From the human T2T-CHM13v2.0 reference genome, Homo sapiens: 64,000 bases of DNA. The stretch is taken from assembly GCF_009914755.1 (NCBI RefSeq), contig NC_060929.1; one strand, given 5' to 3'. A program made the translations under genes and the position numbers. Within the stretch, counting starts at the first letter, position 1. Each line of letters opens with the position of its first letter. The notes under the pieces were generated by a model. That model did not search any database. It was not told the DNA's origin and saw only the letters and a list, made by a program, of their open reading frames with translations. Of the stretch, positions 44,620 through 48,175 are shown piece by piece.

Positions 44620-46029
44620 TACAACTTCACAGTTATTTTCAATAATTTAGGATCACTCTGAAATAACCTTAACATCCGCCCTGGCTGCCTTTGCCCCCCA
44701 AAAGTACATAGTCTGTGCCCAAATAAAGTTTAAACAATCTAGCTGCACTGTTTCCAAGTGTGTAGTATCTAGGGTCTGATCTTCAAAAGTACAACTAAAC
44801 AAACTTGTACCCCAATTAGACAAGTTTAAATAATAATTTGATGGTGTTATGTTTTCTATGAAGAAGGATACAAAGTAGAGTGGTAACTTTCATATATGGC
44901 GGAGAAGGGGGCCATGCTCTCACAAAATGAATGGAGTCAGATCTTTGTAATAGTTTAATAACTATCATGAATATTGGAGAGACACGTCATATAATTTCGA
45001 GTTAGTGCCGAGTATAGGAATATCTAGTAGTCTATTTTATAAGAAAATATTTTCTTTTATATGAACCTATTAATGAGGTAGATGAAGTTTTTTTGTTTTT
45101 AATTCATTTTTCTTAGGCACATATTCAAGGGAGCATACTAGTGTTTGGTAAAACGAGATGATTCCGCATCAGGTTTTTGTTTTTAAAGATGAAAGAGCTG
45201 AAAAACCTTGTTTTGTCACAGCAATGCCATCCAGTTATTCAAATTTTTTGAGATCGTAATTCAAAAATTACATTGTGATTTAGCTTCAAATTTTTTTTTG
45301 TAATGACCTTTGAATTGACAACTTATTAAAATTTTCTGTAGTTTGGATAAAAACAAAACATTTGAAATCATCTAAATTGAAAAAATCGTGTTTGTCAAAA
45401 TCTACCTCCTACTCCCTCACCTAACCATGCCATGTTCAACTCTTGTACTTGAAAAGCATTGAAAAATTTAAGTTCTGTTAATTTCAATCCACTTTCACCA
45501 AAGTAATATTTTTTGTGAGAAAGCCATAATCTCATCAATAATGCCTTTAAAAAAATTCAACAGAAAATATGAACTAGTAACTGATCATGATAAGAAAATA
45601 AAACCCAGAAAAAGCAAAGTCCTAAGGCAGAGCAACTTCTGTCTTCAATGTGAAATCACCATAGTCTCTTGGAAGTGGTTTCTCTTTCAAAGCAGTTTGC
45701 TGTCCAGAGGGTGCAAAAGGCCCATACAAGTTTATTCTTCCAAATAGGAAGATGTAGAAAAAACTCAGATGTCAGAAACGATCCAAATATTTAGTCAAAG
45801 TGATAATGAAATAGGTTGCTTCCTTCATCCAGGTGTGGCCAATTTAAGAGTTTGAGGAAGATATAAAAATTGTGGGTAAATTCAGGGTAGATTGAGACAC
45901 TGAAGCTCTGGCACACAAAGTCTTCTGTCATAGGGAACATGGAACAAGTATGTTTCCCCCCAGGATTTCTTTTCTGGCCTTGAGTCTAAAATCACATGAT
46001 TTTTTGGTACTTGTTAAAAATGTGGCCCT

Positions 46030-46300
46030 CTGTAATCCCAGTACTTTGGGAGGCCGAGGTAGGCAGATCACGAGGTCAGGAGATCGAGACCATCTTGGCC
46101 AACATGGTGAAACCCCGTCTCTACTAAAAGTACAAAAATTAGCTGTGCATGGTGGCGCGTGGCTGTAGTCCCAGCTACTCGGGAGGCTGAGGCAGGAGAA
46201 TCGCTTGAACCAGGGAGTCAGAGATTGCAGTGAGCCAAGATCGCGCCACTGCACTCCAGCCTGGCGACAGAGCGAGAGTCCATCTCAAAAAAAGAAAAAA
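46030..46300 (+). mobile_element. 5'-truncated AluS(c)-type element
   Basis: ctgtaatcccagtactttggg...cctggcgacagagcgaga. Confidence 0.9.
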
Positions 46301-46302
46301 AT

Positions 46303-46636
46303 TGGTTGAGCATGGTGGCTCATGCCTGTAATCCCAGCACTTTGGGAAGCCAAGGTGGGCAGATCACGAGGTCAGGAAATCGAGATCATCTTGGCTAACA
46401 TGGTGAAACCCTGTCTCTACTAAAAATACAAAAATTAGCTGTGCATGTTGGCGGGCGCCTGTAGTCCCAGCTACTCAGGAGCCTGAGGCAGGAGAATGGC
46501 GTGAACCCGGGAGGCGGAGCTTGCAGTGAGCTGAGATCGCGCCACTGCACTCCAGCCTGGGAGACAGTGAGACTCCGTCTCAAAAAAATAAAATAAAATA
46601 AAATAATAAAAAAATGTAATAATAATAATAATAAAA
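46303..46636 (+). mobile_element. AluY-type element in tandem, (AAT)n tail
   Basis: gagaatggcgtgaacccgggaggcggagcttgcagtg. Confidence 0.9.
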
Positions 46637-46850
46637 AGTGGCCCTTAAACTTGAACTTGCAGACAGCCTGCCTCAAATGGTTGGGCTGCAGCGGGGGCGT
46701 GTCTCCCCACGTCTCATACACTTCCAAGGCCTCTCCTACTACCTCCCCTACCAAGACCTGGGTCACTCCAGTCATGGCCATGGATGCGACCATATTCTAG
46801 GACGCTGAACTGCCAGAGATGGACAGTATCAAACTTCTAAAGGCTGCCTC
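46637..46850 (-). pseudogene. TAF11-like C-terminal remnant downstream of H3Y1, interrupted by Alus
   Basis: [49 protein letters not shown]; remainder resumes near 46020. Confidence 0.9.
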
Positions 46851-47091
46851 TTTCCCTTTCCTACCCAGGAACACACCCACACTGCCTCCCATAATGTGAA
46901 GTGACTTGTGGATACAGTCTATTCGTATTTTAGAAAGTGGAGTTGAATGTGTGTTCATAGCAAACTAGTAGAAACAGCCCATGACACAGGGAACATTGCA
47001 AACACAGAGCTGCATACAGGAAAAGTCAAAGTGTGGATCTCATCTACTGATCAAGTTAAACAAACATCACTGAGTTGCCATCAGGAAGAGA

Positions 47092-47097
47092 TTTATT
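47092..47097 (-). terminator. Candidate poly(A) signal of H3Y1
   Basis: tttatt = AATAAA on minus, ~230 nt past the stop; kept at 17413 in a paralog; no histone stem-loop seen. Confidence 0.55.
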
Positions 47098-47326
47098 TGG
47101 TTTGAAGTAGTCTAAACACAGGCATAGTCCAGTGAAAATGAACAGGTTTCTTGAAAATTGATGTAGAGCTGAAACTCGCTCACTGAAACATTCCCACCTG
47201 ACACTAGTGCCTTATGACCCTCAAGGTAGATTAGACATTAACAAACAAAAGCACACAGAAACACCACCAAGACCTGATTTCTGCCTGTTTCCACTCCCAA
47301 TCCTATGCTTAGCTACCTTTGGGCTC

Positions 47327-47737
47327 TTAAGGACCCTCTCTGCGGAGGCGGCGGGCCAGCTGCATGTCTCGGGGCATAATTGTGACGCGCCTGGCATGGA
47401 TGGCACACAGGTTGGTGTCTTCAAAGAGTTGCACCAGGTAGGCCTCGCTGGCCTCCTGCAGGGCGCCAATGGCCGCACTCTGGAAGCGCAGGTCCGGGCT
47501 GATGGCCTGGGCGATCTCGCGCACCAGGCGCTGGAAGGGCAGCTTGCGCAGGAGCAGCTGCGTGGACTTCTGGTACTTTCTGATTTCCCGCAGCGCCAGG
47601 GTGCCAGGCTTGTAGCGGTGAGGCTTCTTGATCCCTCCTGTAGGCGGCGCCCTTTTTCCGGCTGCTTTGGTGGCCAGGGGCTTCCTGGGGGCCTGCCAGG
47701 CGGTGGCTTTGCGGGCGGTCTGCTTGGTGCGCGCCAT
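47327..47737 (-). CDS. H3Y1: Histone H3.Y (primate-specific H3.3-derived variant)
   Basis: 136-aa [38 protein letters not shown]...SAAIG...RRLRREGP matches H3.Y as I know it. Confidence 0.97.
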
Positions 47738-47847
47738 GTCGCGGGGCCTTAGCCTCTCCCCTGTCCTTGGGCTGAGCCTGGCCGGCTGCAGGCGGTGCTG
47801 GCGTCAGAGAGCGAGGGCAGTGGTGCTGTGGACAGGATTCAGAGAGC

Positions 47848-47917
47848 CTGTGAGTTGAGATCCATGCGCATGACTCTCCCACACACTTAGCCCCTGCCAA
47901 CCCAGCCCCACACTTAC
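47848..47917 (-). other. Candidate 70-nt 5'UTR intron
   Basis: CTG|GTAAGT donor (47917-47912) and CTCACAG| acceptor (47848). Confidence 0.45.
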
Positions 47918-48069
47918 CAGCCCTCAGGTCTGTGGGTCGGAGGCCGCGCTGCTTAGTCTTTCCGGAGGGTCCTGGGTTTCCTTGGTCTACAAAGCAGCAG
48001 CCAGGAATCTCCCTCGCAGGCAGTCTCTTTCTGACTGGAGATCTCTGTGGTCTCAGTAAAACCCTGCCT

Positions 48070-48175
48070 CTTATAAGGAGCTCAGATGATTGGATTAGAC
48101 CCACCCAGCTCCCTTCCATTGTACTTCCTGCTTCACTAGATCCTCAACCTAATCAGGGCTGTGAAAACCCAATCA
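48070..48175 (-). promoter_or_regulatory. H3Y1 promoter: TATA-like box and DUX4-type motifs
   Basis: CTTATAAG ~48070, TGATTGGATTA 48087-48097 (rc TAATCCAATCA), near matches CAACCTAATCA 48145 and AAACCCAATCA 48165; H3.X/H3.Y are established DUX4 targets. Confidence 0.8.

What the first reader, a model, noticed from the sequence alone, without database searches (positions are those of the whole stretch)
45720..48175. H3.Y unit looks like a TAF11L unit with an H3.3 retrocopy between promoter and CDS (promoter capture)
Seen: on the minus strand the order is TAF11L-homologous promoter, H3 ORF, then sequence homologous to the TAF11L leader (rc of ~46850-46940 TCTAAAAT..ATCCACAAGTCACTTCACATTATGGGAGG vs 2963-3012 tctaaaact..atccacaagtttcttcacattgtggaag), fused directly to mid-CDS TAF11L (~500 bp including the start codon missing), then TAF11L 3' flank (45830-45935 vs 3860-3965). 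The same order recurs at 11.9-13.3, 16.9-18.6 and 61.5-63.1 kb. Known: H3.Y is H3.3-derived (AAIG) and DUX4-induced. Inference: an H3.3 retrocopy entered a TAF11L repeat, took over its promoter, the host CDS decayed, and the chimera was amplified in inverted orientation. I do not know of this origin being described, but cannot check the literature.
Basis: partly seen in the sequence, partly recalled or inferred. Interest (0 to 1): 0.85.

Follow-up and report, generated by a model that had tools for sequence, protein, structure and literature searches.

The report
H3.Y histone retrogene inside TAF11L unit
The human histone gene H3Y1 is a processed copy of the H3-3A messenger RNA sitting between the promoter and the coding part of a TAF11-like gene copy, and it appears to use that DUX4-type promoter, which would explain why the two gene families lie together and switch on together.

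Summary
On the minus strand the H3Y1 unit (about 48367-45623) is collinear with a TAF11L unit on both sides of the histone.

- **Shared promoter.** Both units carry a DUX4-type site plus a TATA box, 22-25 nt upstream of both annotated start sites.
- **TAF11L remnant.** The unit holds the TAF11L leader, then the TAF11L coding sequence lacking about 510-520 bp including its ATG, then TAF11-derived 3'UTR. Pfam TAFII28 still scores the remnant.
- **Histone insert.** It is a full-length processed copy of H3-3A mRNA, from within about 5 nt of the 5' end to the polyA site. It is not H3-3B and not a canonical H3 gene.
- **Insertion site.** The insert lies in the TAF11L leader, about 200 bp upstream of the TAF11 retrocopy. 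A 27-30 bp stretch of leader appears on both sides, and an L1-type nick motif sits at the junction. All four TAF units in the window have the uninterrupted site. No polyA tail remains.

One caveat concerns order of events. The histone insert carries a long shared stem (about 0.3 changes per site) that the flanks lack. So the insert may predate the split of H3 and TAF11L units, or the flanks were homogenised.

Seven literature searches found interspersion and DUX4 induction described, but not this origin. Interest 0.6; new member of a known kind.

The parts
48026..48367 (-). Upstream and core promoter region homologous to the TAF11L unit (TAF11L12 2303-2613; LOC391768 unit 40577-40902).
   Evidence: one 344-column alignment, 65%, E 6e-20; 48367..48289 and 48106..48070.
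48087..48097 (-). DUX4-type binding motif TAATCCAATCA, fitting TAAYBBAATCA. The homologous site in TAF11L12 is 2559-2569.
   Evidence: 13 motif matches in the window against 1.09 expected, 0 of 100 shuffles reaching 13. The motif is taken from a passage of PMC12376486.
48070..48076 (-). TATA box TTATAAG, 22 nt upstream of the annotated H3Y1 start site at 48048. TAF11L12 has the same heptamer at 2580-2586, 25 nt upstream of its start site at 2611.
   Evidence: sequence; the 21-mer spanning the DUX4 half-site and TATA is found in 5 units with 0 mismatches to the degenerate pattern, against 0.01 expected. Start sites come from the hub annotation.
47915..48048 (-). First part of the H3Y1 5'UTR, homologous to TAF11L exon 1 (about 2611-2662 and beyond).
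   Evidence: matches to 2620-2662 in 5 of 7 copies (E 0.03 for H3Y1, 1.6e-5 for the best copy); global alignment to the LOC391768 unit.
47826..47914 (-). Leader-derived stretch just upstream of the retrocopy. It starts with GTAAGT (47917-47912) and ends in CAG, so it looks like an intron. Its last ~30 nt (about 47857-47826) are the upstream copy of the duplicated target site (TAF11L12 ~2963-2992).
   Evidence: alignment of 8 copies; in-script consensus best aligns to TAF11L12 2912-2982, 4 of 2000 shuffles as good. H3Y1 alone is weak (28-267 of 1000); matches to 2952-2987 in 4 of 7 copies.
46938..47836 (-). Full-length processed copy of H3-3A mRNA. 5'UTR about 47836-47738, CDS 47737-47327 (136 codons plus stop, AAIG present), 3'UTR 47326-46938. 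About 100 nt of the 3'UTR is deleted right after the stop codon in H3Y1 only.
   Evidence: 47831..47320 with L016 882..1399 (74%, E 8e-105); 47320..46941 with L016 1501..1911 (68%, E 5e-39). L016 mRNA limits 877-1914; the other copies keep the stretch H3Y1 lost; translation.
47092..47097 (-). AATAAA, 17 nt upstream of the annotated transcript end at 47075. The parent 3'UTR differs by one base here. The parent's own ATTAAA signals near 46950 are mutated in H3Y1.
   Evidence: sequences side by side; hub annotation for the transcript end.
46853..46936 (-). Downstream copy of the target site (about 46931-46905, or from 46934) followed by TAF11L leader (TAF11L12 2963-3051). No polyA tail lies between it and the retrocopy end.
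   Evidence: 46934..46886 and 46880..46853; alignment of 9 copies with the H3-3A gene and a pseudogene.
46843..46844 (-). Junction of the ~510-520 bp deletion that removed TAF11L12 ~3057 to ~3563-3579. This took out the intron acceptor, the ATG and about 360 nt of CDS.
   Evidence: both sides of the gap are seen in 3 further copies (11.9-12.2, 35.2-35.5 and 61.0-61.8 kb); the same junction in 9 of 9 aligned copies.
46636..46850 (-). TAF11L coding remnant (TAFII28 histone-fold domain, model positions 24-84, one in-frame TAG). It spans the former TAF11 exon 4/5 junction without an intron.
   Evidence: PF04719 hit at window 46662-46850 minus, 47.2 bits, E 5e-9, above the 27-bit cut-off; translation; exon map.
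46026..46635 (.). Two tandem Alu-like repeats inserted into the TAF11L remnant, in H3Y1 only.
   Evidence: 46030-46301 against 46326-46597, 88.6%, plus many Alu-like matches. The hub table marks 46026-46642 as masked.
45623..46013 (-). End of the TAF11L CDS and TAF11 3'UTR-derived sequence (TAF11L12 3778-4169).
   Evidence: E 2e-36. TAF11L12 3674-4220 matches TAF11 exon 5 on chr6.
2961..2992 (+). Uninterrupted ('empty') target site in TAF11L12. It lies inside the annotated intron 2817-3133 and about 200 bp upstream of the TAF11 retrocopy. Positions 2966-2970 read TTTT/A on the opposite strand.
   Evidence: this 32-mer occurs once in each of the 4 TAF units of the window (0-1 mismatch) and nowhere else. 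(sequence).

Best explanation
H3Y1 is a chimeric retrogene.

**The host unit.** The TAF11L unit is itself a processed copy of TAF11. It sits behind a promoter with a DUX4-type site and a TATA box.

**The insertion.** That unit received, in sense orientation, a full-length processed copy of H3-3A mRNA. The copy went into the unit's 5' leader, a stretch that the selected TAF11L12 transcript removes as an intron. The site is about 350-380 bp downstream of the start site and about 200 bp upstream of the TAF11 retrocopy. The junctions look like L1-type target-primed insertion: a TTTT/A nick motif and a 27-30 bp target duplication.

**How it is expressed.** Transcription of H3Y1 starts at the inherited TAF11L promoter. 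It runs through about 130 nt of TAF11L exon-1-like leader and about 90 nt of further leader into the H3-3A 5'UTR and coding sequence. It ends at an AATAAA that arose inside the H3-3A 3'UTR.

**Fate of the host gene.** One deletion of about 510-520 bp, shared by all copies, removed the start and first ~120 codons of the TAF11L ORF. The chimera was then amplified to at least 13 copies or fragments in the cluster.

**Shown here:** the homologies, the limits of the insert, the parent gene, the deletion and the shared promoter core.

**Inferred:** the L1 mechanism, and that this promoter gives H3.Y its DUX4 response.

**Not settled:** whether present-day TAF11L units never carried the histone or lost it.
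For: **Collinear homology on both sides of the histone** (E 2e-37, 2e-36, 5e-9, 1e-6, 3e-5; E 6e-20 upstream).

**The downstream part is truly TAF11L.**
- Pfam TAFII28 scores window 46662-46850 minus at 47.2 bits, against a 27-bit cut-off. It also scores 4 other H3 units.
- The TAF unit carries TAF11 exons 1-5 joined without introns.

**The parent is H3-3A.**
- The 392-nt stretch after the H3Y1 stop codon gave 27 own-genome matches. Eleven are in the chr5 cluster. One is at chr1:225.26 Mb, preceded by an intron. Fifteen are elsewhere, among them intronless copies. None is on chr17.
- Against a chr2 processed pseudogene whose limits are fixed by a polyA tail and a ~16-nt direct repeat, H3Y1 matches from mRNA position 6 to 1035 of 1038.

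**Insertion site.**
- In 9 of 9 copies the retrocopy end abuts leader sequence homologous to TAF11L12 from ~2963.
- The stretch before the retrocopy start aligns to TAF11L12 2912-2982: 4 of 2000 shuffles were as good for the in-script consensus, and 11 of 2000 against the LOC391768 unit.
- The 4 TAF units each hold one uninterrupted copy of the site.

**Promoter.**
- The DUX4 motif and TATA box lie at equivalent offsets from both annotated start sites.

**One origin for all copies.**
- All 9 H3 units form one clade against H3-3A (100/100).
- They share the deletion.

**Literature (passages read).**
- DUX4 ChIP-seq signal near the start sites of H3.X, H3.Y and H3.Z, and induction by DUX4 (PMC6886682, section 7).
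- TAF11L11, TAF11L12 and H3Y1 are among the top 10 DUX4 targets in FSHD myotubes (PMC12776069).
Against: - **No polyA tail.** None is left at the 3' junction in any of 9 copies.
- **The target duplication is old and weak.** For H3Y1 alone the upstream copy is not significant: 28 to 267 of 1000 shuffles were as good, depending on target and segment. The support comes from a consensus and from recurring weak hits in related copies, which are not independent.
- **Branch lengths do not fit a simple 'insertion into one copy of a repeat'.**
  - The histone part has a stem of about 0.30 changes per site between H3-3A and the base of the H3 units.
  - In the TAF11L remnant the H3 units join the TAF units at an unresolved base, with stems of only 0.03-0.07.
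  - Distances among H3 units in the flanks (0.22-0.28) are about as large as distances from H3 units to TAF units.
- **Promoter use is not tested here.** It rests on RefSeq start sites and published ChIP and RNA data.
- **The CDS alone points elsewhere.** Its best nucleotide matches outside chr5 are intronless H3 genes at chr1:148.9 Mb (80-81%) rather than H3-3A copies (75-76%). I attribute this to the strong AT-to-GC drift measured, but that is an inference.
Confidence: 0.85

Rival explanations
1. Same anatomy, different history. The ancestral single unit carried both retrocopies behind one promoter, with the H3-3A copy nested in the 5'UTR intron of an intact TAF11L. After duplication the two kinds of unit arose by complementary losses. 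The TAF11L units lost the histone, for example by recombination between the 27-30 bp target duplications. The H3 units lost the 5' half of TAF11L.
For: - The histone part shows about 0.30 changes per site shared by all H3 units before they diverged. The linked TAF11L remnant shows almost no shared H3-unit stem (0.03-0.07, unresolved base). Monophyly of the H3 units there is not rejected (p-AU 0.26).
- The distance from TAF11 to the base of all units (0.34) is similar to the distance from H3-3A to the base of the H3 units (0.30).
- The insertion site lies inside the intron of the selected TAF11L12 transcript (hub annotation), so both products could have come from one promoter.
- The 95-bp leader island between insertion and deletion is no more diverged from TAF units (72-73%) than the other flanks. 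That is hard to explain by gene conversion alone.
Against: - It needs a precise excision of about 1.1 kb that left a clean site in every TAF unit. This kind of event is rare.
- No unit in this genome has the histone together with an intact TAF11L domain: 0 of 5 H3 units scored by Pfam.
- No TAF unit shows any leftover histone sequence (best off-chain matches E>=0.5).
- Branch lengths here are distorted by biased substitution and by conversion between copies.
Confidence: 0.3
2. The shared 'promoter' is not inherited from a TAF11L unit. It reflects independent copies of an interspersed element, for example the MLT1E3 LTR reported in the TAF11-Like monomer. The TAF11L fragment downstream of H3Y1 came there by an unrelated rearrangement.
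For: - Passages of PMC3018141 say the 3.4-kb monomer holds an MLT1E3 LTR, a partial Alu and Charlie2a pieces.
- DUX4 is known to bind MaLR LTRs (passage of PMC12376486).
- I could not place the LTR within the unit with the tools on hand.
Against: - Homology is collinear and continuous from ~320 bp upstream of the start site through exon-1-like leader to the insertion point. It resumes at the matching leader position on the other side.
- Own-genome searches with 47738-48069 found only the 8 chr5 copies, and no dispersed family.
- An LTR origin of the promoter would not contradict inheritance through the TAF11L unit.
Confidence: 0.03
3. The H3Y1 coding sequence derives from a replication-dependent, naturally intronless H3 gene by DNA duplication, or was overwritten by one. 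It would then not come from H3.3 mRNA.
For: The best nucleotide matches of the CDS outside chr5 are intronless H3 genes at chr1:148.9 Mb (80-81% over 402-411 nt). Intronless H3-3A-type copies score 75-76%.
Against: - Both untranslated regions are H3-3A: about 95 nt before the ATG and about 380 nt after the stop.
- AAIG is present.
- Substitutions relative to H3-3A are strongly AT-to-GC: 0.23-0.31 per AT site against 0.13-0.22 per GC site, in 9 of 9 copies. This would raise similarity to GC-rich H3 genes by convergence.
Confidence: 0.02

Closest known systems
H3-5 (H3.5, formerly H3F3C), a hominid retrogene of H3-3B
   Same: An H3.3-derived intronless gene made by retrotransposition that encodes a diverged H3 variant (passage of PMC9526256).
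   Different: H3.Y comes from H3-3A, not H3-3B. It sits inside another retrogene's unit and uses that unit's promoter. It is multicopy and is reported as DUX4-induced.
TAF11L genes of the TAF11-Like macrosatellite (5p15.1)
   Same: Same promoter core (DUX4-type site plus TATA), same leader, same TAF11-derived 3' part. Both are listed as DUX4 targets.
   Different: The H3Y1 unit has the H3-3A insert and lacks about 510-520 bp including the TAF11L start. Its TAFII28 remnant covers model positions 24-84 with a stop, so it is a derivative and not a TAF11L gene.
Retrocopies that become expressed by landing in or next to a host gene and using its promoter or 5' exon (chimeric or 'hitch-hiking' retrogenes)
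   Same: Sense-oriented insertion downstream of a host start site, host-derived first part of the 5'UTR, and host regulation taken over.
   Different: The host is itself a retrogene in a macrosatellite, so one promoter served two successive retrocopies, and the host ORF was then deleted. This class is recalled from general knowledge. Of the retrocopy reviews listed I saw only titles and abstract starts.
DUX4 in D4Z4
   Same: A retrogene embedded in and amplified with a primate macrosatellite (passages of PMC6886682 and PMC13224869).
   Different: H3.Y is a target, not the regulator. The H3 units are old and diverged (72-95% alike), not a homogeneous array.
DUX4-bound MaLR/ERVL LTR promoters
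   Same: A DUX4 motif close to a start site creating an early-embryo promoter (passage of PMC12376486).
   Different: Whether this promoter lies in the monomer's MLT1E3 LTR could not be tested here.

Membership tests
L1-mediated processed retrocopy of H3-3A | Lacks the parent's introns, while the parent has them. | tested here: met
   H3Y1 47831-47320 is contiguous with the spliced copy L016. The chr1 gene L017 matches only from the last coding exon onward. L016 and L017 agree only from position 1257.
L1-mediated processed retrocopy of H3-3A | Covers the mRNA from its 5' end to the polyA site, and no further. | tested here: met
   Matches mRNA positions 6-1035 of 1038. Beyond both ends the sequence is TAF11L leader.
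L1-mediated processed retrocopy of H3-3A | PolyA tail at the 3' end. | tested here: not met
   0 of 9 copies keep an A-run beyond the 4 A's that belong to the target site. Old tails often decay, so this weakens the claim but does not exclude it.
L1-mediated processed retrocopy of H3-3A | Target-site duplication and a TTTT/A nick motif. | tested here: inconclusive
   The motif is present at TAF11L12 2966-2970 on the opposite strand. The duplication of ~2963-2992 is supported by the consensus (4 of 2000 shuffles). For H3Y1 alone it is not significant.
Chimeric retrogene using a host promoter | Insert in sense orientation downstream of the host start site, with host sequence forming the start of the transcript. 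| tested here: met
   The annotated start site 48048 lies 22 nt after the shared TATA box. 48048-47915 aligns to TAF11L exon 1 (hub annotation).
Chimeric retrogene using a host promoter | Host-type regulation shown experimentally. | not testable with these tools
   Literature only: DUX4 binding near the H3.X/Y/Z start sites and induction (PMC6886682); TAF11L11/12 as DUX4 targets (PMC12776069).
TAF11L gene (TAF11-Like macrosatellite monomer) | Intact ORF with a complete TAFII28 domain. | tested here: not met
   Model positions 24-84 only, with one TAG. The ATG and about 360 nt of CDS are deleted.
H3.3-type histone | AAIG at residues 87-90. | tested here: met
   The translation shows AAIG. Residue 31 is P in H3Y1 where the H3-3A copy has S.
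DUX4-responsive promoter | TAAYBBAATCA motif near the start site. | tested here: met
   48087-48097. The motif is also at the corresponding place in H3P19, H3P21, H3P22, TAF11L12 and the TAF11L13 unit. The proximal site is mutated in the LOC391768 unit.

The most novel reading that the evidence does not exclude
One DUX4-driven transcription unit once encoded two retrogenes at the same time. An H3-3A copy sat nested in the 5'UTR intron of an intact TAF11L, and the two products were chosen by splicing against polyadenylation. The present H3.Y and TAF11L gene families would then be the two halves of that unit, separated after duplication by complementary deletions. That would be structural subfunctionalisation of a two-retrogene unit inside a macrosatellite.
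Probability: 0.3. Interest if true: 0.75.

Novelty: new member of a known kind. Interest (0 to 1): 0.6.

Why it matters
H3.Y/H3.X and the TAF11L genes are among the strongest DUX4 targets in cleavage-stage embryos and in FSHD muscle. So far they are described only as 'interspersed'.

The anatomy here gives a concrete reason for their co-regulation: they share one promoter by descent. It also names the parent of H3.Y (H3-3A mRNA) and fixes the limits of the insert.

It shows how one DUX4-responsive promoter recruited two chromatin or transcription genes in turn, a TFIID subunit and a histone. It yields direct tests: mutating the shared DUX4 site, long-read transcript structure, and outgroup loci.

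It also warns that the coding sequence has drifted strongly towards GC, which misleads simple similarity searches about its origin.

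Tried and rejected
- **Canonical-H3 origin.** Considered because and rejected on the UTR evidence and the AT-to-GC bias.
- **H3-3B as parent.** No chr17 match among the 27 matches.
- **Finding the TAF11 parent or dispersed repeat relatives with TAF-unit DNA.** Searches failed because all 40 scored places were array copies. 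The parent was found instead through Pfam PF04719 and fetched.
- **Target duplication with H3Y1 alone.** Not significant.
- **Molecular-clock dating.** Root-to-tip lengths of 0.2-0.5 changes per site seem too large for genes reported only from primates (section 14 of PMC2935562). The substitution pattern is also biased. I therefore give no dates.
- **Three-way comparison of the two duplicated site copies with the empty site.** Done by eye on about 31 columns. It is too short to root and was not used.
- **Placing the MLT1E3 LTR in the unit.** No repeat library is on hand, and the hub's masked list names no stretch between 2221 and 6198.
- **Geng et al. 2012.** Not held. The DUX4 motif was taken from a review passage instead.
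- **Ederveen et al. 2011 on the human H3 complement.** Not looked for or seen. It may bear on whether the chr5 copies were already called H3F3A-derived.
- **Supplements of PMC6886682** (its Figure S1 on the locus) were not looked at.
- **Outgroup primate genomes.** They cannot be reached with these tools.

Full report
**What was checked.** I compared the reverse complement of 45500-48600 with TAF11L12 (2200-4500) by sensitive blastn.

The five best of 18 matches form one collinear chain:
- 48367..48289 with 2303..2382
- 48106..48070 with 2550..2586
- 46934..46886 with 2963..3011
- 46831..46636 with 3579..3768
- 45934..45623 with 3859..4169

Their E-values run from 2e-37 to 3e-5. Two weaker matches fit the chain, and the remaining 11 (E>=0.17) do not. 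Against the more ancestral-looking TAF unit at 40.4-42.7 kb (LOC391768), the upstream homology is one 344-column alignment: 48367..48026 with 40577..40902, E 6e-20.

Searching the whole window with the TAF11L12 unit shows the same minus-strand pieces next to H3P20, H3P21 and H3P22, and in truncated units at 31, 35 and 40 kb. The same gap, TAF11L12 ~3057 to ~3577, appears wherever both sides are present.

**The downstream part is a broken TAF11L, and TAF11L is itself a retrocopy.** A Pfam TAFII28 (PF04719) search of the window's own assembly gave 56 matches.
- 49 are TAF units on chr5, of which 47 cover model positions 2-86 and two are slightly shorter (2-84 and 2-71). Forty are on the plus strand and 9 on the minus strand.
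- 2 are exons of TAF11 on chr6.
- 5 are partial minus-strand remnants starting at model position 24-28 and ending at 78-86, each with one TAG.
- One of those remnants is window 46662-46850, directly downstream of H3Y1 (47.2 bits; cut-off 27).

I fetched the chr6 locus. TAF11L12 ~3203-4220 (LOC391768 unit 41234-42399) consists of TAF11 exons 1 to 5 joined without introns, plus 3'UTR. The sequence from the start site to ~3190 is non-TAF11 host leader.

**The histone part is a full-length H3-3A mRNA copy.** An own-genome search with the 392 nt after the H3Y1 stop codon gave 27 matches.
- 11 are in the chr5 cluster, all on the minus strand.
- 1 is at chr1:225.26 Mb.
- 15 are scattered over other chromosomes.
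- None is on chr17.

The chr1 place matches only from the last coding exon onward. Upstream of that exon it no longer matches the spliced copies, as expected of an intron. By position I take it to be the H3-3A gene; the gene name and band are recalled.

A chr2 processed pseudogene (L016) has a polyA tail and a ~16-nt direct repeat at its ends. This fixes the mRNA as L016 877-1914. H3Y1 aligns to it in two pieces:
- mRNA position 6 (window 47831) to the stop codon
- a second piece, after a ~100-nt gap specific to H3Y1, on to position 1035 of 1038 (window 46941)

H3P22 aligns in one piece over positions 17-1038. The 332 nt upstream of the ATG match only the 8 chr5 copies.

The translated ORF keeps AAIG.

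The CDS by itself scores higher against intronless H3 genes at chr1:148.9 Mb (80-81%) than against H3-3A copies (75-76%). However, substitutions relative to H3-3A are strongly AT-to-GC in 9 of 9 copies: 0.23-0.31 per AT site against 0.13-0.22 per GC site. GC content rises from 43% to 48-59% in the copies that hold coding sequence. I therefore read the higher score as convergence in base composition.

**The junctions.**
- *3' junction.* In an alignment of 9 copies with the H3-3A gene and pseudogene, homology to H3-3A ends at the polyA site. It is followed at once, with no A-run beyond four A's, by sequence homologous to TAF11L12 from ~2963.
- *5' junction.* An alignment of 8 copies shows a conserved ~90-nt stretch before the retrocopy. 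It begins with GTAAGT and ends in CAG.
  - Its in-script consensus aligns best to TAF11L12 2912-2982 (4 of 2000 shuffles as good) and to the LOC391768 unit 40988-41029 (11 of 2000).
  - Natural copies give recurring weak collinear hits to 2620-2662 (5 of 7), 2890-2916 (5 of 7) and 2952-2987 (4 of 7).
  - For H3Y1 alone the signal is not significant.
- *Reading.* TAF11L12 ~2963/2966-2992 is therefore represented on both sides of the insert. The opposite strand at 2966-2970 reads TTTT/A.
- *Empty site.* The 32-mer 2961-2992 occurs exactly once, uninterrupted, in each of the four TAF units of the window.
- *Position.* The site lies within the intron (2817-3133) of the selected TAF11L12 transcript and about 200 bp upstream of the TAF11 retrocopy.

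**The promoter.** H3Y1 has TAATCCAATCA at 48097-48087 and TTATAAG at 48076-48070. The annotated start site at 48048 is 22 nt after the TATA heptamer. TAF11L12 has TAATTCAATCA at 2559-2569 and the same heptamer at 2580-2586, 25 nt before its start site at 2611 (hub annotation).

The DUX4 motif TAAYBBAATCA (passage of PMC12376486) occurs 13 times in the window against 1.09 expected, mostly at these promoters. A 21-mer spanning the half-site and TATA is found in 5 units against 0.01 expected.

Published work reports DUX4 ChIP-seq signal near the start sites of H3.X, H3.Y and H3.Z, and induction by DUX4 (PMC6886682, section 7). It also lists TAF11L11, TAF11L12 and H3Y1 among the top ten DUX4 targets in FSHD myotubes (PMC12776069, passages).

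The transcript ends 17 nt after an AATAAA (47097-47092). The parent differs from that signal by one base, while the parent's own signals near the old polyA site are mutated in H3Y1.

**History, and a conflict.**
- *Histone part.* In a tree of the histone part, all 9 H3 units form one clade (100/100), separated from H3-3A by about 0.30 changes per site. Tips are then 0.08-0.2.
- *TAF11L remnant.* In a tree of the linked TAF11L remnant rooted on TAF11, the 7 TAF units form a clade (100/99). The 9 H3 units fall in two groups at an unresolved base with stems of only 0.03-0.07. Holding them together costs 0.65 log-likelihood units (p-AU 0.26).
- *Pairwise differences.* Among H3 units they are 0.24-0.28 (5' flank), 0.18-0.32 (3'UTR) and 0.22-0.25 (leader plus remnant). 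The 3'UTR differs from H3-3A by 0.27-0.35.
- *The conflict.* If the insert had entered one copy of an existing family, the linked flanks should share at least as long a stem as the insert. They do not.
- *Possible resolutions.*
  - The ancestor carried both genes and the two kinds of unit arose by complementary losses.
  - The flanks went on being homogenised with TAF units after the insertion.
  - The insert evolved faster.
- I cannot decide among these without outgroup genomes. The absolute lengths and the substitution bias also make dating unsafe.

**What is known and what is not.** Passages read:
[quoted passage not shown] TAF11 is not mentioned at all (PMC2935562).
- The TAF11-Like monomer holds an ORF, an MLT1E3 LTR, an Alu and Charlie2a, with one mention of histones (PMC3018141). 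I did not read that passage.
- H3.5 is called a retrotransposed H3-3B copy, but no origin is given for H3.Y (PMC9526256; its two supplements searched).

Seven full-text searches found no paper stating any of the following: that H3.Y is an H3-3A retrocopy inserted in a TAF11L unit; that the two share a promoter; or that a TAF11L remnant follows H3Y1. Subscription papers are outside the library, so this is absence in what was searched, not proof.

**Verdict.** It can be sharpened on the parent gene, the limits of the insert, the insertion site, the single shared deletion and the shared DUX4/TATA core. The mechanism, a retrocopy taking over a host promoter, is a known kind. This instance stands out because the host is itself a retrogene in a macrosatellite, and because it explains the co-regulation of two DUX4 target families.

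Noticed in passing
window 47320-48130 against locus L002 (H3Y2): H3Y1 and H3Y2 differ by only 0.07 (5' flank) and 0.05 (5'UTR plus CDS), but by 0.22 in the 3'UTR and 0.33 downstream. The switch lies near the stop codon. It looks like gene conversion or recombination that homogenised promoter and CDS of the two coding copies.
   Followed up: partly
window 47320 (just after the H3Y1 stop codon): About 100 nt of H3-3A 3'UTR (mRNA ~524-624) is missing in H3Y1. H3P22 keeps it whole, and the other copies keep 130-135 bp at this place.
   Followed up: partly
window 47912-47917 and 47826-47830; the same places in 7 other copies: The stretch between TAF11L exon-1-like leader and the retrocopy begins with GTAAGT in 8 of 8 copies. 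It ends in a pyrimidine-rich tract plus CAG in 7 of 8. It could be a ~90-nt intron in the 5'UTR, although RefSeq shows H3Y1 as one exon.
   Followed up: no
window 2511-2521, 23601-23611, 40783-40793: TAF units carry a second DUX4-type motif, TAATCTAATCA, on the opposite strand about 40-50 bp upstream of the first. H3P21 and H3P22 have further motifs upstream (18583-18593, 63429-63439, 63630-63640). One more lies at 21641-21651 outside any unit I defined.
   Followed up: no
window 3563-3579 (TAF11L12): The right-hand breakpoint of the deletion shared by all H3 units falls within about 10 bp of the former TAF11 exon 3/4 junction. It may be chance.
   Followed up: no
window 44419-45667 against 600-1876: About 1.3 kb to the left of the H3Y1 unit matches the sequence to the left of TAF11L12 in the same orientation (74%). 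The unit itself is inverted. So the H3 unit looks inverted in place relative to the rest of the monomer, with one breakpoint near TAF11L12 ~4169 and the other at ~1876.
   Followed up: partly
window 40553-40562: Here a truncated H3 unit (39563-40553, cut inside the H3-3A 3'UTR) abuts the upstream end of the LOC391768 TAF unit (40562 onward, plus strand) head to head.
   Followed up: no
window 12744-13441 (H3P20): H3P20 lacks the promoter. Homology to the other H3 units starts at the GTAAGT and resumes about 560 bp further upstream in H3Y1 coordinates.
   Followed up: no
window 2696-2940: This 245-bp stretch of the TAF11L12 leader, holding the annotated exon-1 splice donor at 2816, is absent from the LOC391768 unit. 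It appears mostly absent from H3 units, which seem to keep only ~2890-2916.
   Followed up: partly
all H3-unit copies, histone part: There is a strong excess of AT-to-GC over GC-to-AT changes relative to H3-3A in 9 of 9 copies. This is the reverse of the usual mammalian pattern, as I recall it, and suggests biased gene conversion in this region.
   Followed up: partly
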